Positions 8,344 through 63,813 are shown, counted from the first letter of the stretch. The stretch is 64,000 bases of DNA from Candidatus Levybacteria bacterium RIFCSPHIGHO2_01_FULL_41_15 (GCA_001782165.1 MFNV01000009.1:122283-186282), one strand, 5' to 3'. Translations and numbers: made by a program. The notes: generated from the sequence alone by a model not told the origin.

Positions 8344-9456
8344 ATGAAGGCCTCTTTCCTTTGTGAAAATGTAGACAAAAAACTTTCCTTTGTAAACCAT
8401 GCGGTTTCTCAAAGATCCCAGTTACCAATTCTTTTGAATTTTCATATTCAAGCAAAAAAAGGAAACCTTATAATCAAAGCGACCGACCTTGAAATAGGAA
8501 TTCAAGTGAGTATCCCAGCAAATGTTGAACAAGAAGGAGAAGCAACGGTTCCCGCGAGAGCTTTTTACGATCTTCTTTCAAACGTCCAGAAGGGGATAAT
8601 TTTTCTTGCGACCAAAGACAACAATCTGATTTTTGGGACGGATAAAATAAAAACCGTTTTTCAAACAACGCCCGCCGGAGAATTCCCAAAGATATATGAA
8701 GAAAAAGGGGGGAAAATTGCGACCATACCGGAGGAAACAATCGAAAAAGAATTTTCCTCCGTTGTGTTTGCCGCATCACCCGACCCCGGAAGACCTGCCC
8801 TATCGGGCGTTCTTATTAAAAAGATTAGCGGAGGAAAGGAGGGGTTTTTGATGGTAGCAACGGACGGGTTCCGCCTGTCTTTAAGGGGAACCCAGAATAA
8901 AAACACAGAGAGCGATGGGGGTTTTGTGGTTCCTGCACGAATTATAAAGGAGCTTTCCTTTATGAAAGACAACAAAGACGTAGGGGTTTATGTTTCCAAA
9001 AAAGGCAATCAAATCCTGTTTGAGCAGGAGGGGAGCATTTTGGTGGGAAGACTCATTGAGGCAAAATTCCCAAATTACCAGAAGATAATCCCCCAGGATT
9101 TTTCAACAAGAGCGGAATTTGATAAAACTGAATTTCAGTCGGCTGTTAAAACCTGCGCTGTTTTTGCAAGAGAGGCGGCAAATATTATTAAACTTTCTAT
9201 CTTAAAAAATAAGATAAAAGTCTGGGCAAGCGCACCGTCTCTTGGGGAAACAGAAATTGATGTTGACGCAGAAGTTTTAGGAGAGGAGAATGAGATTGCA
9301 TTTAATGCAAGATATCTTCTTGAATTTTTATCAAACATAGAGGGAGAGGTGATGGTCTTTGAAATGGCAGGGCCACTAAATCCCGGAGTTTTTAAATTAA
9401 AAGACGACCCCAGCTTTCTTCACATCATAATGCCCATTCGTCTGCAGGCACAATAA
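8344..9456 (+). CDS. dnaN: DNA polymerase III beta sliding clamp
   Basis: 370 aa with a three-domain clamp pattern, positioned immediately after dnaA. Confidence 0.9.
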   Translation: MKASFLCENVDKKLSFVNHAVSQRSQLPILLNFHIQAKKGNLIIKATDLEIGIQVSIPANVEQEGEATVPARAFYDLLSNVQKGIIFLATKDNNLIFGTDKIKTVFQTTPAGEFPKIYEEKGGKIATIPEETIEKEFSSVVFAASPDPGRPALSGVLIKKISGGKEGFLMVATDGFRLSLRGTQNKNTESDGGFVVPARIIKELSFMKDNKDVGVYVSKKGNQILFEQEGSILVGRLIEAKFPNYQKIIPQDFSTRAEFDKTEFQSAVKTCAVFAREAANIIKLSILKNKIKVWASAPSLGETEIDVDAEVLGEENEIAFNARYLLEFLSNIEGEVMVFEMAGPLNPGVFKLKDDPSFLHIIMPIRLQAQ

Positions 9457-24773: not shown

Positions 24774-24861
24774 TGCGGAGGAGAGGAGATTCGAACTCCT
24801 GATACGGTTGCCCGTAAACCTGCTCTCCAAGCAAGCGCCATAGGCCACTAGGCGACTCCTC
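24774..24861 (-). tRNA. tRNA-Ser (anticodon GGA)
   Basis: Manual fold: acceptor GGAGGAG/CTCCTCC, anticodon loop TTGGAGA, long variable arm, T-loop TTCGAAT. CCA is not encoded. Confidence 0.8.
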
Positions 24862-24965
24862 CAAAATTAAATTCCAAAATTCGAAATCTTGAATCCTAAA
24901 TAAATCCTAAACCCAAAATTACAAATTTCAAACGATTGGACAATTTAGCAGTCCTTATTATATCA

Positions 24966-25382
24966 TCAGATCAATTTTCTTGCGTTTTGCCAAACTTGCC
25001 TGTCAGATTTATATGTAAGTCTTTCTTCAACTTTTTCAAGAGGGATCCATTCAACGTTCTGCATTTCCCAGTCATGCTCTTTGGTGTCTCCTGACCCGTG
25101 CTCCATAAGAAAATAATAAACAGTTTTTTTAATCTTTTGACCTTGAAAATTATACCAGTATGTAACAGGCTGTAAAGCTTTAATTATTTTCCCATTTATC
25201 CCTGTTTCTTCCTTAACTTCTCTTATTGCAGTTTCTTCTTTACTTTCTTTCTTTTTATGGTCACCGATTACCCCTTTAGGAAATACCCATCCGTGATGGC
25301 CTGAATGCTGAGCGACAAGAATAAATATCTTATCTTTAGATTTTTTATATACTATTCCACCGGCAGAGAACTCGAATTTCAT
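24966..25382 (-). CDS. NUDIX hydrolase
   Basis: 138 aa with the Nudix box GWVFPKGVIGDHKKKESKEETAIREVKEETG. Confidence 0.85.
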   Translation of the reverse strand: MKFEFSAGGIVYKKSKDKIFILVAQHSGHHGWVFPKGVIGDHKKKESKEETAIREVKEETGINGKIIKALQPVTYWYNFQGQKIKKTVYYFLMEHGSGDTKEHDWEMQNVEWIPLEKVEERLTYKSDRQVWQNARKLI

Positions 25383-25496
25383 TTCTTACCCCTCTGTTAA
25401 TATTGGTTTAGTCCACGCTTGTCTTCGCTGACGCTTCGCAAGCGAGCTCCGTCGCTTCGCCCCGTACCAGTCTGGTACAGGGCTTCGCTCGTCCGC

Positions 25497-25522
25497 TCCA
25501 CCTGCAGAAAATTCAAACTTCA
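25497..25522. repeat. direct repeat copy 1 (ccacctgcagaaaattcaaacttcat); on the minus strand it encodes MKFEFSAGG
   Basis: 25/26 identical to the copy at 26056-26081. Both re-encode the first 9 residues of the adjacent NUDIX gene with different synonymous codons. Confidence 0.6.
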
Positions 25523-25529
25523 TGATACA

Positions 25530-25763
25530 TTAGTCTTTCAATAATTTAATAAACTCATCTCTGCCCACCCGTAGATCTCTCTTTATTATTTTTGTTAATA
25601 ATCCGATACCGATCACTTGCGCAGGATGGATTGGAATAGTAGTTCTTCTTCCGTCAGGATGCATATAAATTGCGTGGCTTCCGCTTTGATCGCGAAAAGT
25701 AAATCCAAGTCTTAACACTACCTTAACTAATTCTCTTGCTTTGACTTGAGGAAGTTTTGGCAT
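25530..25763 (-). CDS. hicA: HicA mRNA interferase toxin
   Basis: 77 aa; ...GFTFRDQSGSHAIYMHPDGRRTTIPIHP... matches the HicA/YcfA family. Confidence 0.75.
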   Translation of the reverse strand: MPKLPQVKARELVKVVLRLGFTFRDQSGSHAIYMHPDGRRTTIPIHPAQVIGIGLLTKIIKRDLRVGRDEFIKLLKD

Positions 25764-26014
25764 TAGATAGATACTTCAAGCGAAGTCATACTTACGGGTT
25801 CAACTTTTGGAATATCCTGATGTTCTTTGCGAAGAACCTTTAAATGCAGTTTGATTGCGTCGCGAATATTAGTAATTGCCTGTTCAAGTGTTTTTCCTTG
25901 CGTATGACATCCTGCAAGATCTGGGCAGTCTGCCACAAAAAATCCATCCTCATCCTTTTCAATGATAACCGGAAATTTATAGGTAGTAGTTTTTATTTTT
26001 TGCATTTTTCCCAT
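25763..26014 (-). CDS. hicB: HicB antitoxin (UPF0150 family)
   Basis: 83 aa; KFPVIIEKDEDGFFVADCPDLAGCHTQGKTLEQAITNIRDAIKLHL. Its stop overlaps the hicA start. Confidence 0.7.
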   Translation of the reverse strand: MGKMQKIKTTTYKFPVIIEKDEDGFFVADCPDLAGCHTQGKTLEQAITNIRDAIKLHLKVLRKEHQDIPKVEPVSMTSLEVSI

Positions 26015-26055
26015 ATACTTATTATAACATTTTTAGTTCTTTCCTGCCGACAACT

Positions 26056-26081
26056 CCGCCTGCAGAAAATTCAAACTTCAT
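26056..26081. repeat. direct repeat copy 2 (ccgcctgcagaaaattcaaacttcat), abutting the 3' end of tRNA-Ser(CGA)
   Basis: Read directly; on the minus strand it opens a 19-codon mini-ORF MKFEFSAGGVVGRKELKML*. Confidence 0.6.
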
Positions 26082-26082
26082 G

Positions 26083-26166
26083 CGGAGGGTACAGGATTCG
26101 AACCTGTGAGGGATTACTCCCACGAGTTTTCGAAACTCGCGCCTTAAACCGCTCGGCCAACCCTCC
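26083..26166 (-). tRNA. tRNA-Ser (anticodon CGA)
   Basis: Acceptor GGAGGGT/ACCCTCC, anticodon loop TTCGAAA, long variable arm, T-loop TTCGAAT, discriminator G. Confidence 0.8.
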
Positions 26167-26181
26167 AATTTTATTAAATTG

Positions 26182-26255
26182 CACCCTCGAAAGGATTCGA
26201 ACCTTCGACCTCGACGTCCGCAACGTCGCGCTCTATCCAACTGAGCTACGAGGGC
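26182..26255 (-). tRNA. tRNA-Arg (anticodon GCG)
   Basis: Manual fold: acceptor GCCCTCG/CGAGGGT (G1-U72), D-arm GCTCAGTTGGATAGAGC, anticodon stem-loop CGACG-TTGCGGA-CGTCG, 5-nt variable loop, T-loop TTCGAAT. Confidence 0.6.
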
Positions 26256-26341
26256 ATCCTCTAACCGTCCCGCCAGAGGCGGGATGCTACTATCCGTTGA
26301 ACTACGGGCACAAAGTGGTTTTTATTCTATCTAATTTTAGA

Positions 26342-26953
26342 TTATGAAGCAACTTTTGTGTTCTCAAGAGGAAAATTTTTGGAAAGAAAATTTCCTGCAT
26401 TTTCCATAAAAGTAGGTTTTATCACCTCTCTATAGGGAAGATACGGTAGGAGAACAGATCTTACGTGCTCTACGTCAAGGTTGCCAAGCGGAACAGTCAA
26501 AACACCCGGAATAAAAGCATGCGTTCTCACATGAAGAACTTCTATTCCTTCCACCCTTTTAAAATAAAAATCATAAAGCTCCTGCCATAAAAAGAAATGA
26601 TCTTCAATTGTTATGCCCTCTGTTGAGATCCGATAATGAAAATTATGAGGGGGGACAATGGCAAGTGCAAAGGCAACAAAAACAAGAGACAGGACTACAA
26701 GCATCAAAAGATATTGGGAGAATAAAAATAAAATAACTTGGACAAGAAGCATTATAAGAAGGCTAGTTAGAAAGTATTGCTTAGTTCTTTTCTTGTACGG
26801 TCTTCCGGGAGCGGTCCAGGACAAAAGGGTTTTTATATGGGGATATTGCGTTTCCGCCTGAAGTTCTAAAGGCTCTTTGGGAAGGTCTGCCTTGCCGGCA
26901 GGCAGGTCTCTGGCTTCTTTGGGAAATAATTTTTCCTCTTTTTGGGCAGCCAT
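26342..26953 (-). CDS. membrane protein of unknown function
   Basis: 203 aa with two central TM helices and a ~100-aa C-terminal domain. Confidence 0.4.
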   Translation of the reverse strand: MAAQKEEKLFPKEARDLPAGKADLPKEPLELQAETQYPHIKTLLSWTAPGRPYKKRTKQYFLTSLLIMLLVQVILFLFSQYLLMLVVLSLVFVAFALAIVPPHNFHYRISTEGITIEDHFFLWQELYDFYFKRVEGIEVLHVRTHAFIPGVLTVPLGNLDVEHVRSVLLPYLPYREVIKPTFMENAGNFLSKNFPLENTKVAS

Positions 26954-27000
26954 AAGTTTAATTTATAGGATTAGGAGGAATTAGTCAATGGCGAATAGAA

Positions 27001-27327
27001 CTAGATTCTGGCAGCGTAATTGAAGGCGTAAAAGTATTTTTTAAAAGAGCTATCAGTGGAAAGATATTGATTGTCTAAATACCAGTCAACAAGAACCTCT
27101 CGCATACGGCATAGTTCTTTGAGCCGCATGCGGTTTTTTGGGTCTTTTAGAGTTAGATCAATTAGCTCCAATGCCCGCTCGAATGCCAATTTTTGATATT
27201 GTTTATTACCTTTATTCTTCCAGATTATAGTCCGCTCAACTTCACTACCTATATTAGCCATTTGTTCTACGAGCCTCATATTAAACCAGTGTTTTTTGGA
27301 TAAATTTTTATGATAGATAAGATTCAT
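27001..27327 (-). CDS. small hypothetical protein (downstream member of an overlapping two-gene module)
   Basis: 108 aa, predicted helical. Its start overlaps the upstream 113-aa ORF by 4 nt (ATGA). Confidence 0.35.
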   Translation of the reverse strand: MNLIYHKNLSKKHWFNMRLVEQMANIGSEVERTIIWKNKGNKQYQKLAFERALELIDLTLKDPKNRMRLKELCRMREVLVDWYLDNQYLSTDSSFKKYFYAFNYAARI

Positions 27328-27665
27328 CTTTGAACTAACTTATTTATTATTTGAATTATTTTTTTTTGAATTTTCGGATCATCAACACCACGAGAGTAAT
27401 TGTCTTGTGATGGCTTAAGATTGATCATTGAATCAAATTCGATAAAATCATCGCCCTTTTTTTCTGGATAGAGATTAATACCCCATAAATCTTCCTGCTT
27501 AGATCCACGCTGCAATAAATATTGCTCTTCGTCGGCATGCAGTTCGGCGTTGATCACCATTATTTCTTTTTTAACATCAATAACTGCCTTGACCAAAATA
27601 CCAAACATTCTTTTGGCCATTCTTTTAATTTCTAGAATACTGATTTTTTTTTCAACAACTTTCAT
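27324..27665 (-). CDS. small hypothetical protein (upstream member of an overlapping two-gene module)
   Basis: 113 aa, translationally coupled to the 108-aa ORF. Architecture is toxin-antitoxin-like, but no family was recognised. Confidence 0.35.
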   Translation of the reverse strand: MKVVEKKISILEIKRMAKRMFGILVKAVIDVKKEIMVINAELHADEEQYLLQRGSKQEDLWGINLYPEKKGDDFIEFDSMINLKPSQDNYSRGVDDPKIQKKIIQIINKLVQR

Positions 27666-27892
27666 AAAACCATTCTAACATGCCAAAGATATTGCTTCAA
27701 TGATTTGATCCCGGGGATCATGGCAGAGGAGTATTATTTTCTGTTGGAGTTTAAGATTTTTTCTAGTCGATTTCTTATGTTTACCAACTGGCGGTGGGAG
27801 TGAGATTCACTTCGGCTCCGCTCAGTGTAAACTTCTCATCCCATTTACACTTCGCCAATCTCAGAACATAAAGTCCTGAGCTTGTCGAAGGG

Positions 27893-27979
27893 CGGTGGGA
27901 GTGAGATTCGAACTCACGGCGGCATTGCTGCCACAATGGTTTTCAAGACCATCCGGATAAACCACTCCCGCATCCCACC
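27893..27979 (-). tRNA. tRNA-Ser (anticodon TGA)
   Basis: Acceptor GGTGGGA/TCCCACC, anticodon stem-loop ATGGT-CTTGAAA-ACCAT, long variable arm, T-loop TTCGAAT. Confidence 0.8.
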
Positions 27980-27984
27980 AAATG

Positions 27985-28072
27985 CGGAGAGGGTGGGATT
28001 CGAACCCACGCGAGCCTTGCGGCTCAGGGGATTAGCAATCCCCCGCAATGGACCAAACTATGCGACCTCTCC
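27985..28072 (-). tRNA. tRNA-Ser (anticodon GCT)
   Basis: Acceptor GGAGAGG/CCTCTCC, anticodon stem-loop GGGGA-TTGCTAA-TCCCC, long variable arm, T-loop TTCGAAT. Confidence 0.8.
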
Positions 28073-28866: not shown

Positions 28867-29266
28867 GGGGATGCATTGCATCGACAGGAAAGCACATTAA
28901 AAACTGCAAGCCGACTTTGATGACAGTCGTCCCGCTGATAGTTTTCAGTCGGGATCCCGCCATCGGCGGTGATAAAACAGGGTCAAAAAATAAATGCTAA
29001 CGATCAAAAGTTAGCGTACGCATTTGCTTATAATTAAGTAATTTCGTACTGTTCATTAAATCTTTTCTCAACGAGATTTTATGGGCATAAATAAAGTTGA
29101 GATATAAATAAAAAGTTGGTTGGCTTTTTATCCGAAAATTTCAACCTTTGCTTTGTTTGTTTCCTTCCGATTTGGAGAAAATAAAGCGAGACTTAAAAAT
29201 CGGATAAGCTTGTAGATGTTTTTGGTTCGGCTTTCTTGGACTCGAGCTCACAGCTCGACATCTCCA
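28867..29266 (+). ncRNA. ssrA: tmRNA (transfer-messenger RNA)
   Basis: 5' GGGGAUG...AUCGACAGG tRNA-like start. 3' T-stem-loop TCGAG-CTCACAG-CTCGA, then CATCTCC-A, giving a G3-U70 wobble and A73 discriminator (tRNA-Ala identity). The internal AAAAAAUAAAU-GCU AAC GAU... block parallels E. coli AAAAAAUAGUC-GCA AAC GAC. Predicted tag reading frame 28996-29037 encodes (A)NDQKLAYAFAYN*. The element sits in a 490-bp ORF-free gap 1.0 kb from smpB. Confidence 0.65.
28931..28978 (+). repeat. 48-nt double-hairpin element, copy A (inside the tmRNA pseudoknot-1 region)
   Basis: gtcccgctgatagttttcagtcgggatcccgccatcggcggtgat has two stem-loops. A second copy lies at 53656-53703 with compensatory changes. 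Confidence 0.5.
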
Positions 29267-29341
29267 CACTACGCCCACGATTTCATAGGGGCTCCGCGTG
29301 GTAAACCACACTTTAATCTTTTGTTCCCATTCTTTTAATGC

Positions 29342-55264: not shown

Positions 55265-55852
55265 TTGGCAATGAGTAAATATTTGGACTTCTTTAAAACT
55301 GTCGGAAAATCGAAAAAACTTCCTCGTACCGGGTGGATTAGAGAAAAAATCAAAAACCCCGAAAGTGCTGCGGAACATTCCTTTAGAGTCGGAGTATTAT
55401 CTATGATTCTTGCAGAAAAACTGGAAGTTGAAAAAGATAAGCTTATGAAAATGGCCCTAATCCATGATTTGGGAGAAGCAGTTACAGGAGATCTAGTATG
55501 GATAAGATGGGGCGTGGTGGATTTAAAAGCAAGAGGAAAGAAAGAGGAGCAAGAAATAAGAGGAGTTATAAAACTTTTTAGCGGCATCGAAGAAGGAAAA
55601 AAATATATAAAGATTTTTGAAGAAATGATTCTCCGTTCTACAAAAGAGGCAAGACTTTTCTGGCAAATTGATAAATTAGAAATGGCTCTACAGGCTTTGG
55701 AGTATGAAGAGGAGCAAGGGAAAAATCTGGATGAGTTCTTTGCTACAGCTGATTTGTATGTTAAGCATCCGGTTTTAAGAGAAATATTTGATGAAATTTT
55801 AAGCCAGAGACCTGCTGCTAAGCAGAGGAAGATAGGATATGAAAGTAGCTGA
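55265..55852 (+). CDS. HD-domain phosphohydrolase (YfbR-like 5'-deoxynucleotidase family)
   Basis: 195 aa; AEHSFRVGVL...IHDLGEAVTGD. Confidence 0.7.
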   Translation: MAMSKYLDFFKTVGKSKKLPRTGWIREKIKNPESAAEHSFRVGVLSMILAEKLEVEKDKLMKMALIHDLGEAVTGDLVWIRWGVVDLKARGKKEEQEIRGVIKLFSGIEEGKKYIKIFEEMILRSTKEARLFWQIDKLEMALQALEYEEEQGKNLDEFFATADLYVKHPVLREIFDEILSQRPAAKQRKIGYESS

Positions 55853-57089
55853 TGTGATGTCAACAACCTTGGATTGGGTGGCTACGGATACAAAAATTAG
55901 AGAGGTTTCAAGACTTATTTTTGGCCGAGGCATCAACGGAGTACCTGTCTGTAGAGGAAGAAAAGTAATAGGCTTTATTTCAGAAAAAGACATTCTCTCC
56001 AAGTTTTACCCCTCAATGAGGGAATATACGGAGGACCCTTTTCGTGAAGGAAATTTTGAGGAAATGGAGGAGAAAGTCGATCAAATATTTGCTCTCACGG
56101 CAGAAAAGATAATGAGCAGAAATCCGACAACTGTTACCCCTGACACCCCTCTTCTTAAAGCCCAGTCCTTAATGTTTATTCATAAAGTCGGAAGACTTCC
56201 GGTTGTGGATAAAAGTGGGAACTTAATTGGAATGATAACTAAAGGGGATATCTTTAGAGCATCAGTAGGAGATAGGCTGCCCTTAACAGATGAAGAAGAG
56301 TATCACGACTGGCAGGCAAAACACTACGATATAATAACTGACTGGAAACAAAGACTCCAAAACGAAATCCCGGATTTATCGGCTCTTTTTAGGAAACATA
56401 AAGTAAAAGATGTGATAGATATTGGTTTCGGCACAGGCGAACATGATATTGCTCTGGCAAAAGAAGGATTTAATGTTTTGGGAATTGAAAGCAGCCAATT
56501 AATGGCCAGAGAGGCCAAGAAAAAGGCAGATAAACTACCGCAGGATGTTAAAAAGAGATTAAACTTTATTTTCGGGGACTATTCAAAAATACTTTCGCAG
56601 GAAGAAAAAAAGTACAGAGCAGCAATTTTTATGGGAAACGCGTTTCTTCATCTTGTCCCACAGTACAAAAAAGTCCTAGATGCGATTTCCAACTCTCTTT
56701 TATCTCACGGGTCTGTTATTGTTCTTCAGATTACAAATCTTGAGAGAATTTTCAAAGTCAAAAACAGGGTTTTTGATGTTACCTTCGGACGTTCTAAGCA
56801 TGGAGTTCCTTCGGAACACGCATTCTTCAGATTTTATGATCCGAAAGACAAGAATGGTTACCTTACCCTTAATACCGCAATCTTTGATCATGACGAGAGA
56901 AGATGGAAGTTTAGGACAATGAACTCCGCACCAATTGTTAATCTTAATAAAAATAGTGTAAGAAATTTGCTTAAAAAGAAGGGGTTTGGTAAAATTTCAT
57001 TTTATGGAGGGAAATTTCTTGGGAGGCTTTTTAGAGAACCATTTAAGCCCTCTGAGAGCGATTGGCTAAATGTAATTGCCGTAAGATAA
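55839..57089 (+). CDS. CBS-pair domain fused to class I SAM-dependent methyltransferase
   Basis: 416 aa with two CBS repeats at the N-terminus, then VIDIGFGTGEHDIALAKEGFNVLGIE. Confidence 0.6.
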   Translation: MKVADVMSTTLDWVATDTKIREVSRLIFGRGINGVPVCRGRKVIGFISEKDILSKFYPSMREYTEDPFREGNFEEMEEKVDQIFALTAEKIMSRNPTTVTPDTPLLKAQSLMFIHKVGRLPVVDKSGNLIGMITKGDIFRASVGDRLPLTDEEEYHDWQAKHYDIITDWKQRLQNEIPDLSALFRKHKVKDVIDIGFGTGEHDIALAKEGFNVLGIESSQLMAREAKKKADKLPQDVKKRLNFIFGDYSKILSQEEKKYRAAIFMGNAFLHLVPQYKKVLDAISNSLLSHGSVIVLQITNLERIFKVKNRVFDVTFGRSKHGVPSEHAFFRFYDPKDKNGYLTLNTAIFDHDERRWKFRTMNSAPIVNLNKNSVRNLLKKKGFGKISFYGGKFLGRLFREPFKPSESDWLNVIAVR

Positions 57090-57092
57090 GTT

Positions 57093-57641
57093 ATGAAAAA
57101 ATTATTATTTGCGGTTTTAATTTTTCTTTTTGTCTTAAATCCGAATTCCTCTTTTGCTCAGGATTCTTCCGCAACCTCCTCAGGAAAAAGCAAAAAAGTT
57201 GAGTATACTCTTCCTTATCCCGGAATTCTTCCAGATAGTCCTCTTTATCCTTTTAAGGCCCTGCGAGACAGAATTGTTTCATTTCTTATGTCAGATCCTG
57301 CAAAGAAAGCCGAGTTTAATCTGCTTTCGGCAGACAAACGTTTAAATGCGGGAGTATACTTGTTTGCAAAAGGGGAGAGTAAACAAAAGCTTGCACACTC
57401 TACCATTTCAAAAGGAGCAAATTACTTTGAGCAGGGAATTTCCCAGCTTGAACTTTTAAAAAAGCAAAACTACCCCTTGGATAGTTTGATACAGAAATAT
57501 CAACTGGCTTCGTATAAACATCAGGAGGTACTAAGAGAGCTGATAAGAAAATCAAAGGGGGATATTCAAAAGGGCCTCTCCGCCACAGAAGAAAGGATTG
57601 AAAATTTTCAAAATAGGCTAAATAAGCTTAGATCTCCATAA
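57093..57641 (+). CDS. secreted DUF5667-like protein
   Basis: 182 aa with a signal peptide, then LPYPGILPDSPLYPFKALRDR, typical of a family common in CPR genomes. Confidence 0.4.
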   Translation: MKKLLFAVLIFLFVLNPNSSFAQDSSATSSGKSKKVEYTLPYPGILPDSPLYPFKALRDRIVSFLMSDPAKKAEFNLLSADKRLNAGVYLFAKGESKQKLAHSTISKGANYFEQGISQLELLKKQNYPLDSLIQKYQLASYKHQEVLRELIRKSKGDIQKGLSATEERIENFQNRLNKLRSP

Positions 57642-57848
57642 TAAGATAAACAAAATATAACGAGTAAATTTTGTCAGTTCCTCTAAATTTGCTTTTTTAT
57701 CCTTTCAAAAATTAGCAGAATTTTTTTACCCGTTTTAAACTCCAAATTTTGCCTTTTGCAAAACCCGAGGCTAAAAAAAGGCTTGACACTATTTGATATT
57801 GTTATTGATAGTTGACACGGCAGATTTAGTGTAATACCATCCTTCTTA

Positions 57849-57864
57849 GCACTATTAGTAGTGT
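57849..57864. promoter_or_regulatory. candidate NrdR box (gCACTAttagTAGTGt) in the nrdR leader
   Basis: Palindromic arms CACTA/TAGTG match the 16-bp NrdR operator consensus (acaCwAtATaTwGtgt) at 12/16. A weaker half-match lies at 57786-57801, and two TTGACA -35-like hexamers at 57784 and 57819. Confidence 0.35.
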
Positions 57865-57996
57865 TTCTGTCTGTCGGCAGACAGGTTCCGCCAGAGACGG
57901 ATTAAGTACATTGATAATTTGCCAAGACCCCTGTCCGAACGTGCAAGTTGATGTGAAGCAAATTAAAATGAATTTATCTAATGCAAGAATTTATTT

Positions 57997-58446
57997 ATGA
58001 AGTGTCCATACTGCGGATCCAAAGAAACTGAAGTTGTAGAAACAAGGGACAGCGAGGATCTTGAGACTATCAGAAGAAGAAGATCTTGTTTGACTTGTGA
58101 CAAGAGATTCACGACATATGAAAGAGTAGAGAATATAAGCTTGGTAGTAATTAAAAAAGACGGCAGACGGGAACAGTTTAACAGAGACAAATTAAGGTCA
58201 GGAATAATAAGGTCATGTGAGAAAACAAAAGTATCGATGGAGGACATCGAAAGAATAGTTACGGAGACGGAAAGAGAATTGAGAAATGCCGATTCGGTTG
58301 AGGTAGATAGCAAAAAAATAGGACAGATGGTTGCAGCAAGACTTAAAAAAATTGACAAGGTTGCTTATATAAGATTTTCAAGTGTATTTAAGAGATTTGT
58401 AGATGTTGAAGACTTCGAAAAAGAAGTCAAAAGATTAATAAAATGA
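57997..58446 (+). CDS. nrdR: transcriptional repressor NrdR
   Basis: 149 aa with an N-terminal zinc ribbon CPYCGS...CLTCDKRF and an ATP-cone. Confidence 0.9.
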   Translation: MKCPYCGSKETEVVETRDSEDLETIRRRRSCLTCDKRFTTYERVENISLVVIKKDGRREQFNRDKLRSGIIRSCEKTKVSMEDIERIVTETERELRNADSVEVDSKKIGQMVAARLKKIDKVAYIRFSSVFKRFVDVEDFEKEVKRLIK

Positions 58447-58862
58447 AACAATTAAAAACAGAAATTATCGCACTTTGCGATTACGCAAGTATTTCGAGAG
58501 AAGGAAAACTAAATATTAATGGAATTTTTGATGAATTAAGAGTTCAACAATTTCCCGGCGGTTTAGCGCGTGCGTTTTTTGTTGCAACTATTTCTGGTAC
58601 ACCAAACACCTCTTATAAATTAAATCTAAAAATAGAACCATCCGAGGGATTTGCAGGTGAAAAAAGCAGCTTTGATCTTGATACTTCTACCGGGCCTAAT
58701 GGCAAAAATAATTTGGTAGTAGAGCTTATGGGCCTAGCTTTTAAAGAGGAGGGGGACTATAAATTCATATTAAATGAGAAGAAGAAAGAAGTTGGATCAA
58801 CAACACTGAAGGTTTTAGATCAAAGAAAATATAGCATTAAGGACACAAAATTACCAAATTAA
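58443..58862 (+). CDS. hypothetical protein in the nrdR-nrdJ operon
   Basis: 139 aa, translationally coupled to the nrdR stop (ATGA overlap). Confidence 0.4.
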   Translation: MKQLKTEIIALCDYASISREGKLNINGIFDELRVQQFPGGLARAFFVATISGTPNTSYKLNLKIEPSEGFAGEKSSFDLDTSTGPNGKNNLVVELMGLAFKEEGDYKFILNEKKKEVGSTTLKVLDQRKYSIKDTKLPN

Positions 58863-58864
58863 AT

Positions 58865-59410
58865 ATGAATAAAGATTTTGCTAATAATTTAGTTAATACC
58901 CCAGATTACGAGCATGAACCTTTCGATATGAGTGAACTAAAACCTTTAACTGTTTATCCTAATGCAATGAATTCTGGCGCAGCTATTTATCCAGCAACTA
59001 TAGTTGAAGGACCGATAGATAATTTCGGAACAGCAGTTGCTCAAGGCAATATGGGTCAAGATTTTTATCCTACTACGGTTAGCGGGACTACCTCTGTTTA
59101 TTCAAATTCTAATATTAATTCATGCACTTCGGTCTCGTTAAGGACTATTTCAGAGGGCTTTCATAAAGGAGATGGACATAATCTAGGAGAATTGTCGGGG
59201 TCAACCTTTCTAGCTAAGCCCACCACAGAGCAATATCAAACCAAAGATAAAAGCTGTACAAATAGTAAATCTAATTTTTATAAAATAGAAATTAAATATG
59301 ACCTTGCCAAAAAGCCTAACTACAAAAACGCAGATCAAATTGCAAAAGTGGATTTACACAAATTTCTTAGATACAGCCACGTGCAGTTTCTAGCTGAATA
59401 TTATTTATGA
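58865..59410 (+). CDS. hypothetical protein in the nrdR-nrdJ operon
   Basis: 181 aa, rich in Ser/Thr/Asn; its stop overlaps the nrdJ start. Confidence 0.4.
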   Translation: MNKDFANNLVNTPDYEHEPFDMSELKPLTVYPNAMNSGAAIYPATIVEGPIDNFGTAVAQGNMGQDFYPTTVSGTTSVYSNSNINSCTSVSLRTISEGFHKGDGHNLGELSGSTFLAKPTTEQYQTKDKSCTNSKSNFYKIEIKYDLAKKPNYKNADQIAKVDLHKFLRYSHVQFLAEYYL

Positions 59411-61959
59411 AACTTGATGGAATAAGAAATAAAGTGTTTTTGGACAGATATGCTTTAAAGGGCGAAAAGGGCGAACTTCTTGAACAAACCCCAGAGCAAA
59501 TGTGGACAAGAGTTGCCCATGGCATTGCAGGCAATGAGAAGACCAAAGACAGAAAGCATTGGGAGAAAAAATTCTACGATGTAATGAAGGATTTTAAATT
59601 TGTTCCCGGAGGAAGAATCTTATCAGGAGGAGGAACAGACTATCAAGTAACCTACTTTAATTGTTTTGTAATACCGTCTCCAAAGGATTCAAGAGAAGGA
59701 ATCTTAGAATCCTTAAAACAGCTTGTTGAAATTCAATCAAGATCAGGTGGAGTAGGTCTTAGTCTTTCTTCTTTAAGACCTCGGGGAGCAAGAGTTAAGA
59801 AAGTAAACGGAACATCCTCAGGCCCTGTTACGTGGGCAGGACTCTTTTCCTATGCAACTCATGATGTGGTTCAGCAGGGAGGAACCCGACGCGGTGCGAC
59901 AATGCTCATGCTTTGGGATTGGCATCCTGATATCGAAGAGTTTATTACCGTAAAACAGGACCTTTCCAGGATAAATGGGGCAAACCTTTCGGTATGTATT
60001 TCAGACGCCTTTATGGAAGCAGTCAAAAAAGATGCAGATTGGGATTTGGTTTATCCTGACCTTGATGACCTAAGATATGATGAAAAATGGAACGGAGAGA
60101 TAGATCAATGGAAAAAAATGGGCGGCAAAGTGAAAATCTACAAAACCGTAAAGGCAAGGTATCTATGGAATCTTATTTGTGAAGCCGCCTGGGGATCTGC
60201 TGAGCCGGGGTTGCATTTTCTTGAGCGGAGCAACAAAAGAAGCAACACTTGGTATTTTGAAAGGCTTGTTGCGACAAACCCTTGCGGAGAGCAGCCTTTG
60301 GGACCATGGGCGGTATGCAACCTTGGGGCAATGAATTTGGCATCTTATGTAAAAGTGGATAGCCAGTTTGATTACAAACAGTTAGGAGAAGATGTAAAGG
60401 TTGCGATAAGATTTTTAGACAATGTTATTGATAAGACTTATTACTTTTTCAAAGAGAACAAAAAATGTGCCAAAGATATAAGAAGGACAGGTCTTGGGAT
60501 AATGGGACTTGGAGACGCTCTTATAAAGATGAAAGTTCGTTATGGTTTGGATGAATCTCTTAAAATTATTGATAAAATATTCGAGACCCTTAGAAACAGC
60601 GCCTATGAGGCATCCTCAGAAATTGCCAAAGAGAAAGGCCCTTTCCCTAAATTTGATAAAACTAAATATCTTAAGGGGTATCATATAAAAGAATTGCCCG
60701 CCGCTATCCGAAAAAAGATAAGTCGGTACGGGATAAGAAATGCCGTTCTTCTTACAATTGCTCCAACAGGTACTACTTCTCTTCTTGCGGGAGTGACCTC
60801 GGGAATCGAACCCGTGTATGAATTTACATTTATAAGAAGGGACAGGACAGGCGAGCATGTTATGTATCATCCACTCTTTGAGGAATGGAAAAAAGAAAAC
60901 GCTGGCAAAGAAAAATCCTTCGACTCCGCTCAGGACAGGCCTGATTACTTCGTTTCGGCAAATGATCTGACTCCTCTTGAGCATGCCCAAGTTCAGGCAG
61001 TTGCCCAAAAATATATTGATGCATCAATTTCAAAAACAGTGAATGCACCAAGCTCCCATACAGTCGAGGATGTAAAAACCCTGTACATGGCAGCATATGA
61101 CTTAGGACTTAAAGGAGTAACATACATGAGAGAGGGGTCAAGAGAAGGAGTTTTATCAAGAGTGGATGAAAAGAAAGATAAAGAAAAGGTTGATAAATCA
61201 CAAAGACCAACTGCTCCACGACCCATACAGCTTGAAGGAGTAACTTACAGGGTAGAAACTCCTTTAGGCAAGACTTACATAACTATAAATCATGATGAAA
61301 ATAGAGAACCGTTTGAAGTGTTCATTACTATAGGAAAAACCGGATCAGATATTTCCGCAATGGCAGATGCCTTGGGTAGATTAATTTCCGTAAATTTAAG
61401 ACTCTCAGGCGGACTCTCTCCAAGAGAAAGAATAAGACAGATAGTTGCTCAGCTTGCGGGGATTGGAGGAGCAAGAAGTGTCGGATTTGGAAAAGATAGG
61501 GTAAGATCTTTGCCCGATGCGGTCTCAAAAATTCTTGCAATGCATTTTGGTTTTGCAGTTAATGGTCTTGTAGAGGATAAAAACCTGTCTTTGGGCCCGC
61601 TTCGCAGCGAGGCGAGCAAGGCAGAAATTGAACAGAATGGACAATTGAGTGGAGTTTTGGCAAATGGAGTAGACGGAAGAGTCCGCCTGCCCTCTGATCC
61701 TCATCTTACTGCCGAAGGACTTGGCAGGGATAGGGAAATAGCAAATGGGGAAATCGAAGTAAGAAAGGACGAGGAAAAAGAGGAAGAGGTAATTAAGATG
61801 CAGCAACTTGCCCTGGTAGGTAAAGCCTCAGGAGTTAATCAAGAATTTTCTGATTCCGGAACAGGGCTTTATGATATTTGCCCTGAGTGTGGAGGAGGAA
61901 GCTTAGCGTACGAAGAAGGCTGCCGCAAATGTTATAGCTGCGGTTATGCCGAATGCTAA
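59407..61959 (+). CDS. nrdJ: adenosylcobalamin-dependent ribonucleotide reductase (class II)
   Basis: 850 aa with class II RNR motifs (GGTRRGATM, NPCGEQPL, thiyl-radical Cys) and a C-terminal Zn-ribbon CPECGG...CRKCYSCG. Confidence 0.85.
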   Translation: MKLDGIRNKVFLDRYALKGEKGELLEQTPEQMWTRVAHGIAGNEKTKDRKHWEKKFYDVMKDFKFVPGGRILSGGGTDYQVTYFNCFVIPSPKDSREGILESLKQLVEIQSRSGGVGLSLSSLRPRGARVKKVNGTSSGPVTWAGLFSYATHDVVQQGGTRRGATMLMLWDWHPDIEEFITVKQDLSRINGANLSVCISDAFMEAVKKDADWDLVYPDLDDLRYDEKWNGEIDQWKKMGGKVKIYKTVKARYLWNLICEAAWGSAEPGLHFLERSNKRSNTWYFERLVATNPCGEQPLGPWAVCNLGAMNLASYVKVDSQFDYKQLGEDVKVAIRFLDNVIDKTYYFFKENKKCAKDIRRTGLGIMGLGDALIKMKVRYGLDESLKIIDKIFETLRNSAYEASSEIAKEKGPFPKFDKTKYLKGYHIKELPAAIRKKISRYGIRNAVLLTIAPTGTTSLLAGVTSGIEPVYEFTFIRRDRTGEHVMYHPLFEEWKKENAGKEKSFDSAQDRPDYFVSANDLTPLEHAQVQAVAQKYIDASISKTVNAPSSHTVEDVKTLYMAAYDLGLKGVTYMREGSREGVLSRVDEKKDKEKVDKSQRPTAPRPIQLEGVTYRVETPLGKTYITINHDENREPFEVFITIGKTGSDISAMADALGRLISVNLRLSGGLSPRERIRQIVAQLAGIGGARSVGFGKDRVRSLPDAVSKILAMHFGFAVNGLVEDKNLSLGPLRSEASKAEIEQNGQLSGVLANGVDGRVRLPSDPHLTAEGLGRDREIANGEIEVRKDEEKEEEVIKMQQLALVGKASGVNQEFSDSGTGLYDICPECGGGSLAYEEGCRKCYSCGYAEC

Positions 61960-62147
61960 ATTAAATAATTGTGTAATGGGCAATCGCCGTGAAAATCGGT
62001 GGCAGTGCCGCTACTGTTAAAGTCAGAAAACCATTACATACTAAATTTCCCGAGCAGGAAAATTTTATCCTTCTAGGGAAACCAGAAGGATTTTTATATA
62101 AATCTTTATTTTTTTATTTTTTACATTTAATTTTTTGTTTTACTACC

Positions 62148-62681
62148 ATGCCGATTTATACCAAAACAGGAGACAAAGGACAAACAGGACTTTTTTCTGG
62201 AAAAAGAGTTTCAAAAGCAAGCCTTCGGATAGAGGCAATTGGTACTGTTGACGAGTTAAATAGCGTAATAGGGCTCGTGATCTCGCAAATTCAAAATTCA
62301 AAATCACAAATTACAAATGAATTGATTGAGATTCAAAAAGATTTATTTGAAATAGGCGCTGCACTGGCAAATCCCCGCCAAGCATTGAATCTTTCAAAAA
62401 GGGTAAAGGAATTTGAGAAAACAATTGATAAAATGACCAAAGAATTGCCGCCGCTTTTTAACTTTATTCTTCCCGGAGGAGGAGTGGCGGGTTCAACTTT
62501 GCATATTGCAAGAACAGTTTGCCGGCGAACTGAAAGAAGAATAGTTGAGCTTTCAAAAAAGGAAAAAGTTCAAAGCGACGTCATCGTTTATATAAACAGA
62601 CTCTCAGATCTTTTTTTAACTGTGTCGCGTTTTATAAATCAAAAAGAAAAACAAAAAGAAGTTATTTGGACCAGTAAGTAA
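62148..62681 (+). CDS. PduO-type ATP:cob(I)alamin adenosyltransferase
   Basis: Starts at MPIYTKTGDKGQTGL...RIEAIGTVDELNS. It contains a low-complexity insert QIQNSKSQITNE encoded by the caaaattcaaaat repeat. The ORF track entry begins earlier at 61989. Confidence 0.75.
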   Translation: MPIYTKTGDKGQTGLFSGKRVSKASLRIEAIGTVDELNSVIGLVISQIQNSKSQITNELIEIQKDLFEIGAALANPRQALNLSKRVKEFEKTIDKMTKELPPLFNFILPGGGVAGSTLHIARTVCRRTERRIVELSKKEKVQSDVIVYINRLSDLFLTVSRFINQKEKQKEVIWTSK

Positions 62682-62691
62682 CAAGTTTTTT

Positions 62692-63813
62692 ATGAGAATA
62701 GAAGCATATACAGTAGGTTTTGATCCACGAAATTATCATGCGCCAATTCCTAGTGGTTATTCAAAAGACGAAATTACTCGAAGAAGAGAGGGAAATATTA
62801 GGGATAATATAATTAGATATTTAGGGGAATATAGGTTGGGAGTTAAATTTGATGAGATTCGTTATTCAGTTAAAACAAATAATGCCGGAGAAACTTATCT
62901 AGAATCCCCCCATGCCGATCCAGGCCCCATATTAAATGTTTACAAAAAAGCAATTGCCTATAGGCAAGAAAGAGGACTTTCTGTACATAGAGAGGTTGCA
63001 GAATGCCTGGGATTTCAAAAATTGCAGGATAAACTCGTCAATGCACCAGTAGGAACAATGGCAATGTGGGTTAGTCGTCCAGGATCTAAGGAGGACGGGT
63101 ATGGAACGCATAGTTTTACATTCCTTATCCAAGTTGTGGAAGATCCAGGAGAAGGAAAAAGTTTAAGAGTAATCCCTTACAGAAACGAGCAGAGTATAGA
63201 AGAACAGAAAAGCAATTTAATATACTTTGATAAGAACGCCCAAAACTACAATACAGATGTAGATTTATTAGCAAATCCATCTATCATAAATCAGTCCGAC
63301 GCTTTTCAAACACTTGATGACATAATTTCTTTTATAGGAGAAACTGAAAAGTTTAATATCCAGTGGCGTAATAAGCTTACCCCTTTAATAATGCCTTTGA
63401 TAGGAGGATTTATACAGCTTGTTAGAGAAAAAGCATCAGACGAAAATTTACAAAAAGCAAGATATGCAATTGAAAATTTTCTATTAGCGAAGAAAGATTA
63501 CATTTTGGGAAAGGATAGAAACCCTCAGTTAGTTTTTGAAAACCAACCTCGGGTAATTTTTGAAAGATATGGAAATACTACTCCACCAATTGTTGGCGGA
63601 AGCTGTGGGGCTAGCGCAAACGGAGAGAGCAGCAACACATTTAATAATGTTTTTCTTGAAGATAAGTATGGATCAAGAATTTTTAGTTGTCCGGAATGTG
63701 GAAAGACCAATATAAGACCCGAAAACGAACTCCTTTCCAACTGTCAGCATTGCGGCAGCGATAAGGTTTCCTGCTGTGATGTTGATAGATCTTCTTTTGT
63801 TCTTGTTGCATAA
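62692..63813 (+). CDS. hypothetical protein with C-terminal zinc ribbon
   Basis: 373 aa with no recognised catalytic motif. The C-terminus has CPECGKTN...CQHCGS...CC. Confidence 0.4.
   Translation: MRIEAYTVGFDPRNYHAPIPSGYSKDEITRRREGNIRDNIIRYLGEYRLGVKFDEIRYSVKTNNAGETYLESPHADPGPILNVYKKAIAYRQERGLSVHREVAECLGFQKLQDKLVNAPVGTMAMWVSRPGSKEDGYGTHSFTFLIQVVEDPGEGKSLRVIPYRNEQSIEEQKSNLIYFDKNAQNYNTDVDLLANPSIINQSDAFQTLDDIISFIGETEKFNIQWRNKLTPLIMPLIGGFIQLVREKASDENLQKARYAIENFLLAKKDYILGKDRNPQLVFENQPRVIFERYGNTTPPIVGGSCGASANGESSNTFNNVFLEDKYGSRIFSCPECGKTNIRPENELLSNCQHCGSDKVSCCDVDRSSFVLVA

What the first reader, a model, noticed from the sequence alone, without database searches (positions are those of the whole stretch)
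57642..62681. Self-contained B12-dependent dNTP module: NrdR operator, nrdR, two unknown coupled ORFs, class II RNR and PduO-type adenosyltransferase
This is an operon-like arrangement with 4-nt overlaps. Two uncharacterised proteins (139 and 181 aa) are inserted between nrdR and nrdJ. The adenosyltransferase that makes the AdoCbl cofactor lies immediately downstream. A 355-nt leader carries a candidate NrdR box and promoter hexamers. The two unknown ORFs may be RNR accessory factors, for example cobalamin handling or a reductant.
Basis: partly seen in the sequence, partly recalled or inferred. Interest (0 to 1): 0.5.

Follow-up and report, generated by a model that had tools for sequence, protein, structure and literature searches.

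The report
B12 reductase operon with unknown partner
A Levybacteria (candidate-phylum) genome has a self-repressed operon for its vitamin-B12-dependent DNA-precursor enzyme, followed by a B12-sensing RNA switch that gates the B12-activating enzyme; these parts are ordinary, and the new piece is one small conserved protein between repressor and enzyme whose relatives sit inside the dnaK heat-shock operon.

Summary
nrdR, a 139-aa ORF, a 181-aa ORF, nrdJ and a PduO-type adenosyltransferase are all present and tightly packed. The leader carries a conserved NrdR operator: two 16-bp boxes with a 16-bp linker, over a TTGACA promoter.

The true pduO start is therefore 62148. The riboswitch-gated unit also includes a conserved gene with no detectable fold relative, ORF373 (62692-63813).

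The two unknown ORFs differ sharply:
- **ORF139** belongs to Pfam DUF6941. It lies between nrdR and nrdJ in every Levybacteria-like locus examined (59 non-redundant) and has dN/dS of about 0.05. It is an Ig-like beta-sandwich with a disordered tail ending in Asn. It has no redox or cobalamin motif. Its sister subfamily lies between dnaK and dnaJ in Curtissbacteria and Chisholmbacteria.
- **ORF181** is a fast-evolving, mosaic occupant of a variable slot. It has four relatives and dN/dS of about 0.4.

My best reading is a known kind of operon (nrdRJ plus riboswitch-controlled B12 salvage) carrying a new, probably protein-binding accessory. The accessory's function is inferred, not shown.

The parts
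57812..57840 (+). Sigma-70-like promoter (TTGACA, 17 nt, TACCAT) of the nrd operon. A second TTGACA site lies at 57783-57812.
   Evidence: 10 of 12 matches. NrdR box 1 fills the spacer. This is a consensus match only and the transcription start is not mapped.
57817..57864 (+). NrdR operator: box 1 at 57817-57832 (ACGGCAGATTTAGTGT), a 16-bp linker, and box 2 at 57849-57864 (GCACTATTAGTAGTGT).
   Evidence: It is the only box pair in the window, and the same 32-bp offset occurs in L001, L002, L004-L008 and L019. The box definition is from PMC13584703.
57997..58446 (+). nrdR, the ATP-cone/Zn-ribbon repressor (149 aa).
   Evidence: TIGR00244, 190 bits.
58443..58862 (+). ORF139, a DUF6941 family protein of the nrd-type subfamily. 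It has a nine-strand beta-sandwich and a disordered tail ending KLPN. Its ATG overlaps the nrdR stop (ATGA).
   Evidence: PF22091, 68 bits; dN/dS 0.04-0.055.
58865..59410 (+). ORF181, a lineage-restricted, S/T/N/G-rich, mosaic protein in the variable slot between DUF6941 and nrdJ.
   Evidence: 3 homologues; dN/dS 0.37; third-codon positions most variable.
59407..61959 (+). nrdJ, class II (B12-dependent) ribonucleotide reductase (850 aa). It has the NPCGE active-site motif, a TSCPD domain and a C-terminal Cys4 finger.
   Evidence: TIGR02504, 593 bits.
61961..62041 (+). Class-II cobalamin riboswitch aptamer (Rfam RF01689). It starts 2 nt after the nrdJ stop.
   Evidence: 55.5 bits, GA 36.5, E 6e-12; 15 GA-level hits in 13 related loci; compensatory changes in the stem.
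62043..62099 (+). Expression platform. A hairpin at 62046-62061 has the invariant loop CGAGCA (candidate L13). A second hairpin at 62067-62091 (ATCCTTCT/AGAAGGAT) is followed by a T-run and acts as terminator or SD-sequestering stem.
   Evidence: The loop is invariant, with covarying stems, in 15 of 16 platforms. The mechanism is inferred.
62148..62681 (+). pduO-type ATP:cob(I)alamin adenosyltransferase (177 aa), with corrected start.
   Evidence: (TIGR00636, 205 bits, residues 4-175).
62692..63813 (+). ORF373, a conserved protein with no detectable fold relative and a C-terminal Cys4 zinc ribbon. It lies 10 nt after pduO. Its relatives have their own cobalamin riboswitch in other lineages.

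Best explanation
**Shown.** The stretch is an NrdR-autoregulated class II RNR operon, nrdR-DUF6941-ORF181-nrdJ. It is transcribed from a promoter that the two NrdR boxes overlap. No terminator or promoter was detected between nrdJ and the class-II cobalamin riboswitch that follows it.

**Inferred: the riboswitch.** Transcription runs on from nrdJ into the riboswitch. When the riboswitch binds cobalamin, a hairpin with the invariant loop CGAGCA is held by a kissing contact with the invariant aptamer loop UGCCGC. This frees the next hairpin to terminate transcription; in most relatives that hairpin also hides the Shine-Dalgarno sequence. The result is that pduO and ORF373 are switched off. The adenosyltransferase would then be made only when the nrd operon is derepressed and cobalamin cofactor is short.

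**Inferred: ORF139.** ORF139 is a fixed member of this operon. It is a non-enzymatic, protein-binding accessory made in step with NrdR, as start/stop overlap suggests. It would use its beta-sandwich and its conserved C-terminal tail (hydrophobic residue, any residue, Asn) to dock onto NrdR or NrdJ as an assembly, holding or regulatory subunit. The sister subfamily encoded between dnaK and dnaJ presumably does the same for the Hsp70 system.

**Inferred: ORF181.** ORF181 is a real but dispensable, fast-evolving gene in a variable slot. It is not a core RNR factor.
For: **Architecture.** ORFs, overlaps and family scores come.

**Operator.** The box pair is unique in the window, overlaps the promoter and is conserved with identical spacing. 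This matches the published definition of two 16-bp boxes with a 15-16 bp linker, and the nrdRJ precedent in Streptomyces (PMC13584703).

**Riboswitch.**
- The score is above the Rfam threshold.
- The same element lies at the same place in 9 related loci, and upstream of ORF373-family genes in 5.
- Four stem pairs carry compensatory changes.
- The platform hairpins are conserved, and the 3' arm carries the SD 7-8 nt before the ATG in most loci.
- The minimum-free-energy fold shows a competing pairing that consumes the terminator's 5' arm.

**ORF139.**
- PF22091 match.
- 242 close homologues with 69% mean column identity.
- nrdR-X-nrdJ order in 22 of 22 genome loci and 59 non-redundant loci, including a divergent Levyibacteriota copy.
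- dN/dS of 0.04-0.055.
- Its start lies within 5 nt of the nrdR stop in 45 of 63 loci, and within 5 nt of the dnaK stop in 9 of 13 loci.
- The AF2 model is confident, an Ig-like sandwich with a disordered tail.
- A C-terminal Asn is kept across both subfamilies.
- The sister clade lies in hrcA-grpE-dnaK-X-dnaJ.

**ORF181.**
Against: - No interaction, expression or ligand data exist. The partner of ORF139 (NrdR, NrdJ, DnaK or something else) is undetermined.
- The Ig-like fold is generic and gives no functional lead.
- Family members also occur in other contexts: next to a phage terminase, and between leuS-like and comEA-like genes. Operon position may therefore not dictate the partner.
- I could not establish whether Levybacteria also keep a dnaK-type copy. 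The nrd-type could be a relocated general factor rather than an RNR-specific paralogue.
- NrdR box 1 has G instead of the critical C at position 4, and box 2 has TA instead of AT at the centre.
- In the window, a 56-nt AT-rich stretch separates the platform hairpin from the pduO ATG, so only termination and not SD masking can apply there.
- Class-II riboswitches differ in AdoCbl versus MeCbl preference. Whether product or precursor is sensed is unknown.
- The promoter scan found fewer promoter-like sites than in shuffled sequence.
Confidence: 0.5

Rival explanations
1. ORF139 is a general stress or Hsp70-linked factor, for example a holdase or a DnaK/DnaJ cofactor. In Levybacteria it was simply moved into the nrd operon for co-expression and has no RNR-specific role.
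For: The sister subfamily lies between dnaK and dnaJ behind hrcA-grpE in Curtissbacteria, Chisholmbacteria and more distant lineages. The C-terminal Asn tail is shared by both subfamilies. No dnaK-type copy from a Levybacteria genome was seen here.
Against: The nrd-type forms its own clade with subfamily-specific invariant motifs such as FPGG..RAF and NGKNN. It has kept the nrdR-X-nrdJ position across lineages whose NrdR is only 52-64% identical. A general factor would not need NrdR-controlled expression. There was no match to HSP20 or any other chaperone family.
Confidence: 0.2
2. One reading: ORF139 and/or ORF181 handle cobalamin (chaperone or delivery) or supply reducing equivalents to NrdJ.
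For: Position inside a B12-dependent RNR operon next to pduO. One Cys (C12) is invariant in the nrd-type.
Against: - There is no CxxC pair, no thioredoxin, flavodoxin or B12-binding family hit, and the beta-sandwich is not a redox or Rossmann fold.
- The same Cys and fold occur in dnaK-operon relatives, which have no B12 link.
- ORF139 lies upstream of the riboswitch, whereas the genes with a clear B12 signature (pduO, ORF373, DUF4430, DUF6580) lie behind riboswitches.
- ORF181 is absent from most relatives.
Confidence: 0.08
3. DUF6941 plus the variable downstream ORF is a semi-mobile two-gene cassette, of selfish or phage origin, that lodges between co-transcribed essential genes (nrdR|nrdJ, dnaK|dnaJ). 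The variable ORF would be its cargo.
For: - A variable, compositionally similar small ORF follows DUF6941 in both contexts.
- One nrd-like copy sits beside a phage terminase.
- ORF181 has lower synonymous divergence than the adjacent ORF139 in the same genome pair (dS 0.53 against 2.4), which suggests exchange.
- RNR genes here are known targets of selfish inteins.
Against: DUF6941 itself is under strong purifying selection and is vertically stable in one position across the whole clade. The slot is empty in 35 of 59 loci. There were no repeats, integrase or endonuclease, and no PADLOC or PHROG hits. It is almost absent from IMG/VR.
Confidence: 0.07

Closest known systems
Streptomyces coelicolor nrdRJ operon with its NrdR-box pair
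   Same: nrdR is co-transcribed with nrdJ. Two 16-bp boxes with a 15-16 bp linker lie in the promoter, giving autoregulation by an ATP-cone repressor (PMC13584703).
   Different: Here one conserved gene (DUF6941) and one variable gene lie between nrdR and nrdJ. Box 1 has G at the critical C4 position.
Lactobacillus delbrueckii nrdJ-cbrS-cbrT-pduO cluster
   Same: A B12 auxotroph clusters nrdJ with the PduO adenosyltransferase and, in Levybacteria relatives, with putative uptake genes between them (PMC5997447).
   Different: The window itself has no uptake genes. The putative uptake genes of relatives belong to DUF4430 and DUF6580, and their equivalence to CbrS and CbrT was not tested. A riboswitch is placed inside the cluster, and ORF373 is added.
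Class-II cobalamin riboswitches (env8 type, Rfam RF01689)
   Same: The aptamer scores above threshold and has a downstream regulatory hairpin. The regulated gene is B12-related (PMC6158498).
   Different: It is located within an operon directly after a coding gene, rather than in a 5' leader. The platform combines a candidate L13 hairpin with a separate terminator/SD hairpin. Ligand form is unknown.
Thermus thermophilus DafA, the DnaK-DnaJ assembly factor
   Same: A small lineage-specific protein that is known to assemble a DnaK3-DnaJ3-DafA3 complex (PMC3727329). That dafA is encoded in the dnaK operon is from my own knowledge, not from a tool result. It serves as a model for what the dnaK-type DUF6941 may do.
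   Different: No sequence or fold relationship was tested or is claimed. By my recollection DafA is about 8 kDa and not a beta-sandwich. DafA has no RNR connection.
Yeast Sml1 and Hug1, small RNR-binding inhibitor proteins
   Same: Small non-enzymatic proteins that modulate RNR by direct binding (PMC4245953). They are a precedent for a protein-level RNR modulator.
   Different: They are eukaryotic, intrinsically disordered, act on class I RNR and are unrelated in sequence. No bacterial class II counterpart is known to me.

Membership tests
NrdR operator/regulon | Repressor with an N-terminal Zn-ribbon and an ATP-cone | tested here: met
   PF22811 plus PF03477; TIGR00244, 190 bits against 125.
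NrdR operator/regulon | Two 16-bp partially palindromic boxes separated by 15-16 bp, in the promoter region | tested here: met
   Boxes at 57817-57832 and 57849-57864 with a 16-bp linker, overlapping the TTGACA/TACCAT promoter. The same spacing occurs in 8 related loci.
NrdR operator/regulon | Highly conserved box positions C4, A6, A8, T9, T11, G13 (PMC13584703) | tested here: inconclusive
   Box 1 matches 5 of 6 (G at position 4; orthologues L001, L007 and L008 have C). Box 2 matches 4 of 6 (central TA instead of AT, which the paper reports as tolerated).
NrdR operator/regulon | NrdR binds the site in a nucleotide-dependent way | not testable with these tools
   Needs EMSA or MST with purified protein.
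Class II RNR (NrdJ) | NrdJ-specific profile above cut-off; ten-stranded barrel domain with the active-site Cys motif | tested here: met
   TIGR02504, 593 bits against 400. PF02867 E 2e-128. The NPCGE motif is present in the translation.
Class II RNR (NrdJ) | AdoCbl-dependent activity | not testable with these tools
   Inferred from family membership and from the adjacent pduO and riboswitch.
PduO-type adenosyltransferase | PduO N-terminal domain profile above cut-off over the full length | tested here: met
   TIGR00636, 205 bits against 108, residues 4-175 of the 177-aa product starting at 62148.
Class-II cobalamin riboswitch (RF01689) | Covariance-model score at or above the gathering threshold | tested here: met
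   55.5 bits against 36.5, full-length match 1-81. There are 15 further GA-level hits in related loci.
Class-II cobalamin riboswitch (RF01689) | Base-paired stems supported by compensatory change | tested here: met
   Four pairs of the main hairpin have both-side changes in 5-7 of 13 sequences. P1 also differs compensatorily, by inspection only.
Class-II cobalamin riboswitch (RF01689) | Regulatory hairpin (P13/L13) able to form a kissing loop with L5 | tested here: inconclusive
   A hairpin with loop CGAGCA and covarying stems follows 15 of 16 aptamers (one has CGCGC), and the aptamer loop UGCCG is invariant. Pairing is plausible (with one bulged A), but neither loop varies, so there is no covariation test.
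Class-II cobalamin riboswitch (RF01689) | Binds cobalamin; selectivity for AdoCbl or MeCbl/HyCbl | not testable with these tools
   The class spans both selectivities (PMC6158498).
DUF6941 (PF22091) | Profile match above the gathering score over the full domain | tested here: met
   68.1 bits against 27, model positions 1-124 of 125.
Thioredoxin/glutaredoxin/NrdH-type reductant (considered for ORF139 and ORF181) | CxxC active site on a thioredoxin fold | tested here: not met
   No CxxC and only one conserved Cys in ORF139. The fold is a beta-sandwich. No family hit for either ORF.
Small heat-shock protein (alpha-crystallin) (considered for ORF139) | HSP20 domain profile or ACD fold, with a C-terminal I-x-I motif | tested here: not met
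   [not shown]
Known cobalamin-binding or trafficking proteins (considered for ORF139 and ORF373) | B12-binding domain, CblC, BtuF or transcobalamin-like profile or fold | tested here: not met
   [not shown]

The most novel reading that the evidence does not exclude
DUF6941 proteins are a previously unrecognised class of small tail-bearing adaptor subunits for nucleotide-switch machines. One subfamily serves DnaK/DnaJ. The Levybacteria subfamily is a dedicated partner of the NrdR-NrdJ system, which would make it the first protein-level modulator or assembly factor of a class II ribonucleotide reductase or of NrdR in bacteria. In addition, ORF373 would be a new riboswitch-controlled cobalamin-salvage protein with no detectable fold relative.
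Probability: 0.25. Interest if true: 0.75.

Novelty: new variant of a known kind. Interest (0 to 1): 0.5.

Why it matters
Class II RNRs and NrdR are thought to work without dedicated protein partners apart from general reductants. Here a small protein is fixed between nrdR and nrdJ across a whole candidate-phylum lineage, under strong purifying selection. Its sister subfamily is wedged between dnaK and dnaJ. Together these give a concrete, testable candidate for such a partner, and a first functional handle on Pfam DUF6941, which has about a thousand 50%-identity clusters.

The riboswitch placement shows how a genome-reduced B12 auxotroph could couple dNTP demand (through NrdR) with cofactor status (through the riboswitch). 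It also flags ORF373, and in relatives DUF4430/DUF6580, as candidate missing steps of cobalamin salvage in CPR bacteria.

Tried and rejected
**Searches that found nothing useful**
- PHROGs, PADLOC and PDB sequence searches for ORF139 and ORF181, and NCBIfam for ORF139, gave no hits; NCBIfam gave ORF181 only a far-sub-threshold chance match (blaVEB, 14 bits against a cut-off of 670) and the PDB search gave ORF139 only two non-significant matches (E 0.36 and 0.81).
- tblastn of ORF139 against 50,697 phage genomes gave no match. IMG/VR gave only one phage, plus one high-GC fragment.
- A full-text search for 'DUF6941' returned 0 papers.

**Technical failures**
- A broad 60-sequence DUF6941 alignment was too diverse to seed a locus search. 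I replaced it with a 10-sequence alignment.

**Ideas tested and dropped**
- One fast-evolving family filling the slot: rejected. phmmer clustering gives four small families and 11 singletons.
- A riboswitch or other Rfam element in the 355-nt leader: none found.
- The 230-aa pduO ORF: rejected in favour of the 177-aa product.

**Left open**
- I tried to decide paralogy against relocation (whether Levybacteria also have a dnaK-type copy) using cluster names and contig look-ups. The one Levyibacteriota-labelled divergent copy was again nrd-type, so the question stays open.
- No structure was predicted for ORF181.

Full report
**Source and observation.** ORF373 is 100% identical to a protein of Candidatus Levybacteria bacterium RIFCSPLOWO2_01_FULL_38 on a 224-kb contig. 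The window therefore comes from a CPR (Microgenomates) genome.
- nrdR 57997-58446
- ORF139 58443-58862
- ORF181 58865-59410
- nrdJ 59407-61959

There are ATGA-type 4-nt overlaps at nrdR/ORF139 and ORF181/nrdJ, and a 2-nt spacer between the two unknown ORFs. The profile matches are unambiguous. NrdR matches TIGR00244 at 190 bits. NrdJ matches TIGR02504 at 593 bits, with a TSCPD domain and a C-terminal Cys-rich finger. PduO matches TIGR00636 at 205 bits.

**NrdR operator.** I scored 16-mers against the published NrdR-box consensus. This gives one pair in the whole window with the canonical 31-32 bp offset: 57817-57832 (ACGGCAGATTTAGTGT) and 57849-57864 (GCACTATTAGTAGTGT). Such a pair arises in 28 of 100 random 64-kb sequences, so the match alone is weak. 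What supports it:
- It lies in the 355-nt leader.
- Box 1 fills the spacer of a TTGACA-17-TACCAT promoter.
- The same two boxes with the same 32-bp offset recur upstream of nrdR in L001, L002, L004-L008 and L019.

This fits the experimentally defined site: two 16-bp boxes, a 15-16 bp linker, and key positions C4, A6, A8, T9, T11 and G13 (PMC13584703). Two deviations remain. Box 1 has G at position 4, and box 2 has a central TA. The distance from box 2 to the nrdR ATG varies from 38 to 167 nt among relatives. No Rfam family matches the leader. The leader therefore holds no riboswitch.

Rfam finds a full-length class-II cobalamin riboswitch (RF01689, 55.5 bits against a gathering score of 36.5, E 6e-12). 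It lies at 61961-62041 and starts 2 nt after the nrdJ stop. It is the only riboswitch in the window. The 230-aa 'pduO' ORF starting at GTG 61989 runs through it. The real pduO starts at ATG 62148 (MPIYTKTG), where the family match and all orthologues begin.

The element is conserved:
- GA-level hits lie between nrdJ and pduO, or before the genes that precede pduO, in L001, L002, L004, L005, L006, L009, L010, L018, L021 and L108.
- Further copies lie after pduO, in front of ORF373-family genes, in L010, L012, L013, L017 and L021.
- Sub-threshold AdoCbl-riboswitch (RF01482) matches occur at the nrdJ-pduO position in L007, and after pduO in front of the ORF373-family gene in L011 and L016.
- Four pairs of the main hairpin show compensatory changes in 5-7 of 13 sequences.

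Downstream of every aptamer lies a hairpin whose stem covaries while its loop, CGAGCA, is invariant in 15 of 16 cases. A second hairpin follows, whose 3' arm (AGAAGGA or GAGGAG) is a Shine-Dalgarno sequence. It is followed by a U-run and, in most loci, by the ATG 7-8 nt later. The unconstrained fold of the window RNA pairs UUUCCC..GCAGG with UCCUUC..GGGAAA. This consumes the 5' arm of the second hairpin.

From this I infer an OFF switch. Ligand-stabilised contact between the aptamer loop UGCCG and the CGAGCA loop fixes the first hairpin, so the terminator/SD-masking hairpin can form. In the window an AT-rich 56-nt insert separates that hairpin from the ATG, so termination is the likely mode there. 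Which cobalamin form is sensed cannot be read from the class (PMC6158498).

I saw no promoter or terminator between nrdJ and the aptamer. pduO expression therefore probably depends on read-through from the NrdR-controlled operon. This step is inferred.

**ORF139.** It matches Pfam DUF6941 at 68 bits. No paper in the library mentions this family.
- It has 242 close homologues, with 69% mean column identity across 23 diverse ones.
- dN/dS is 0.04-0.055 against two relatives.
- In 22 of 22 GTDB species-representative loci the order is DUF5667 gene, nrdR, DUF6941, nrdJ, pduO.
- In a metagenome scan seeded with distant family members, every copy at least 43% identical to ORF139 that had readable flanks lay next to nrdR or nrdJ, except L070 (48%), which sits beside a phage terminase. 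This gives 59 non-redundant nrdR-X-nrdJ loci.
- A divergent copy from a Levyibacteriota MAG lies in the same context.
- The AF2 model is confident (pLDDT 85.7, pTM 0.78). It is a nine-strand beta-sandwich with a disordered C-terminal tail.
- There is no CxxC, no cofactor motif and no hit in the defence, phage or structure libraries.

**The wider DUF6941 family.** A full HMM search finds 1,066 50%-identity clusters at E of 1e-3 or better. All of the 150 best-scoring proteins listed are at most 158 aa (most 120-158), consistent with a single domain. Copies at or below 42% identity to ORF139 are not near RNR genes. Seventeen complete and three partial loci show hrcA-grpE-dnaK-DUF6941-dnaJ. Pfam confirms this for L037, and two much more distant members show the same context. 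Named examples come from Curtissbacteria and Chisholmbacteria.

A neighbour-joining tree separates an nrd-type clade (59 sequences plus one phage copy) from a dnaK-type clade.

Two features are shared by both clades:
- A C-terminal motif of hydrophobic residue, any residue, Asn at the end of the disordered tail. It reads KLPN in 53 of 71 nrd-type copies.
- A start codon within 5 nt of the stop of the upstream gene, in 45 of 63 cases for nrdR and 9 of 13 for dnaK. The downstream spacing is the variable one.

Other contexts exist. One copy lies between an HD-domain gene and a phage terminase. One high-GC copy lies between leuS-like and comEA-like genes.

I read this as a family of small protein-binding accessories. 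In Levybacteria one lineage is dedicated to, or at least expressed with, the NrdR/NrdJ system. DafA of Thermus (PMC3727329) and yeast Sml1 and Hug1 (PMC4245953) are functional precedents only. No homology is implied. I could not determine whether Levybacteria also retain a dnaK-type copy.

**ORF181.** It has three homologues in 5.8 billion proteins, at 99%, 68% and 66% identity. There are also partial relatives. L002/L073 shares only the N-terminal part. L092 shares only the C-terminal ~45 residues, including the motif FLRYSHxQFL.

Against L104, dN/dS is 0.37 and third codon positions change most (49 mismatches against 33 and 26). It is therefore a real gene under relaxed constraint. Its dS (0.53) is well below that of the adjacent ORF139 (2.4) in the same genome pair.

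The slot between DUF6941 and nrdJ is 40 nt or shorter in 35 of 59 loci. In 18 loci it holds an ORF of at least 60 aa. These ORFs fall into four small families and many singletons. All are enriched in S/T/N/Q/G/P, at 0.32-0.54 against 0.31 for a background of seven neighbouring window proteins. Similar variable ORFs follow some dnaK-type copies. ORF181 is therefore not a conserved RNR factor.

In relatives the riboswitch also controls a DUF4430 gene and a DUF6580 membrane protein. In some it controls a protein combining DUF4430 with an alpha/alpha-toroid domain. The window has none of these. The arrangement parallels nrdJ-cbrS-cbrT-pduO of Lactobacillus delbrueckii (PMC5997447).

**Verdict.** The operon, the operator, the RNR, the adenosyltransferase and the riboswitch are members of known kinds. 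Three things are new:
- the fixed DUF6941 gene between nrdR and nrdJ, with its dnaK-operon sister family;
- the intra-operon placement of the riboswitch;
- ORF373, a conserved gene with no detectable fold relative.

All functional statements about ORF139, ORF181 and ORF373 are inferences from context, conservation and predicted structure.

Noticed in passing
[not shown]
   Followed up: partly
L009 11189-12127; L010 3240-4186; L012 11157-14148; L013, L017, L020, L042, L049, L076, L081, L085: Behind the same riboswitch class, relatives encode a DUF4430 protein plus a DUF6580 membrane protein. In L012, L017 and L081 there is also a 530-aa protein combining DUF4430 with an alpha/alpha-toroid domain (my reading: transcobalamin-like). 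These are probable cobalamin capture and uptake genes and are absent from the window.
   Followed up: partly
L051 about 7302-8402; L086 about 7570-8718 (also L069 and L099, unclear): nrdJ is interrupted in frame at the active-site NPCGE motif by a ~380-aa insert. In L051 the insert has intein hallmarks (Cys start, ...VHN|C end). Both inserts carry LAGLIDADG-like motifs.
   Followed up: partly
L070 532-5941, identical to L109 (IMGVR_UViG_3300031671_000090): A phage contig carries a DUF6941 gene that clusters with the nrd-type. It lies between an HD-domain gene and the terminase large subunit.
   Followed up: partly
window 58865-59410 against L104 465-1016: ORF181 has much lower synonymous divergence (dS 0.53) than the adjacent ORF139 (dS 2.4) in the same pair of genomes. 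This hints at recent exchange of the slot gene or at constraint on its DNA.
   Followed up: no
window 62092-62147; also L002, L006, L021 (first riboswitch): An AT-rich insert of about 50 nt or more separates the riboswitch terminator/SD hairpin from the pduO ATG. In most relatives the ATG follows the hairpin within 7-8 nt. No obvious SD precedes the window's pduO start.
   Followed up: no
window 57865-57996: The 5' UTR between NrdR box 2 and the nrdR ATG is 132 nt in the window, against 22-63 nt in L001, L004, L007 and L008 (box 2 starts 148 nt before the ATG here, 38-79 nt there). It contains a perfect hairpin, CTGTCTG-TCGG-CAGACAG, at about 57869-57886. Its function is unknown.
   Followed up: no
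window 55839-57641: A CBS-domain/methyltransferase fusion gene and a secreted DUF5667 gene are syntenic upstream of nrdR in the close relatives; more distant loci keep only the DUF5667 gene.
   Followed up: no
window 28867-29269 and 24776-28072: A tmRNA gene (113 bits) and five tRNA genes lie in the window. In L108 the tmRNA and smpB lie just downstream of the nrd/pduO cluster.
   Followed up: no
L105 213-623: A 71% GC contig carries a DUF6941 gene between a leuS-like 3' end and a comEA-like gene (both named by eye from the translated fragments, no profile search). The family therefore extends beyond the low-GC CPR loci seen here and beyond the nrd and dnaK contexts.
   Followed up: no
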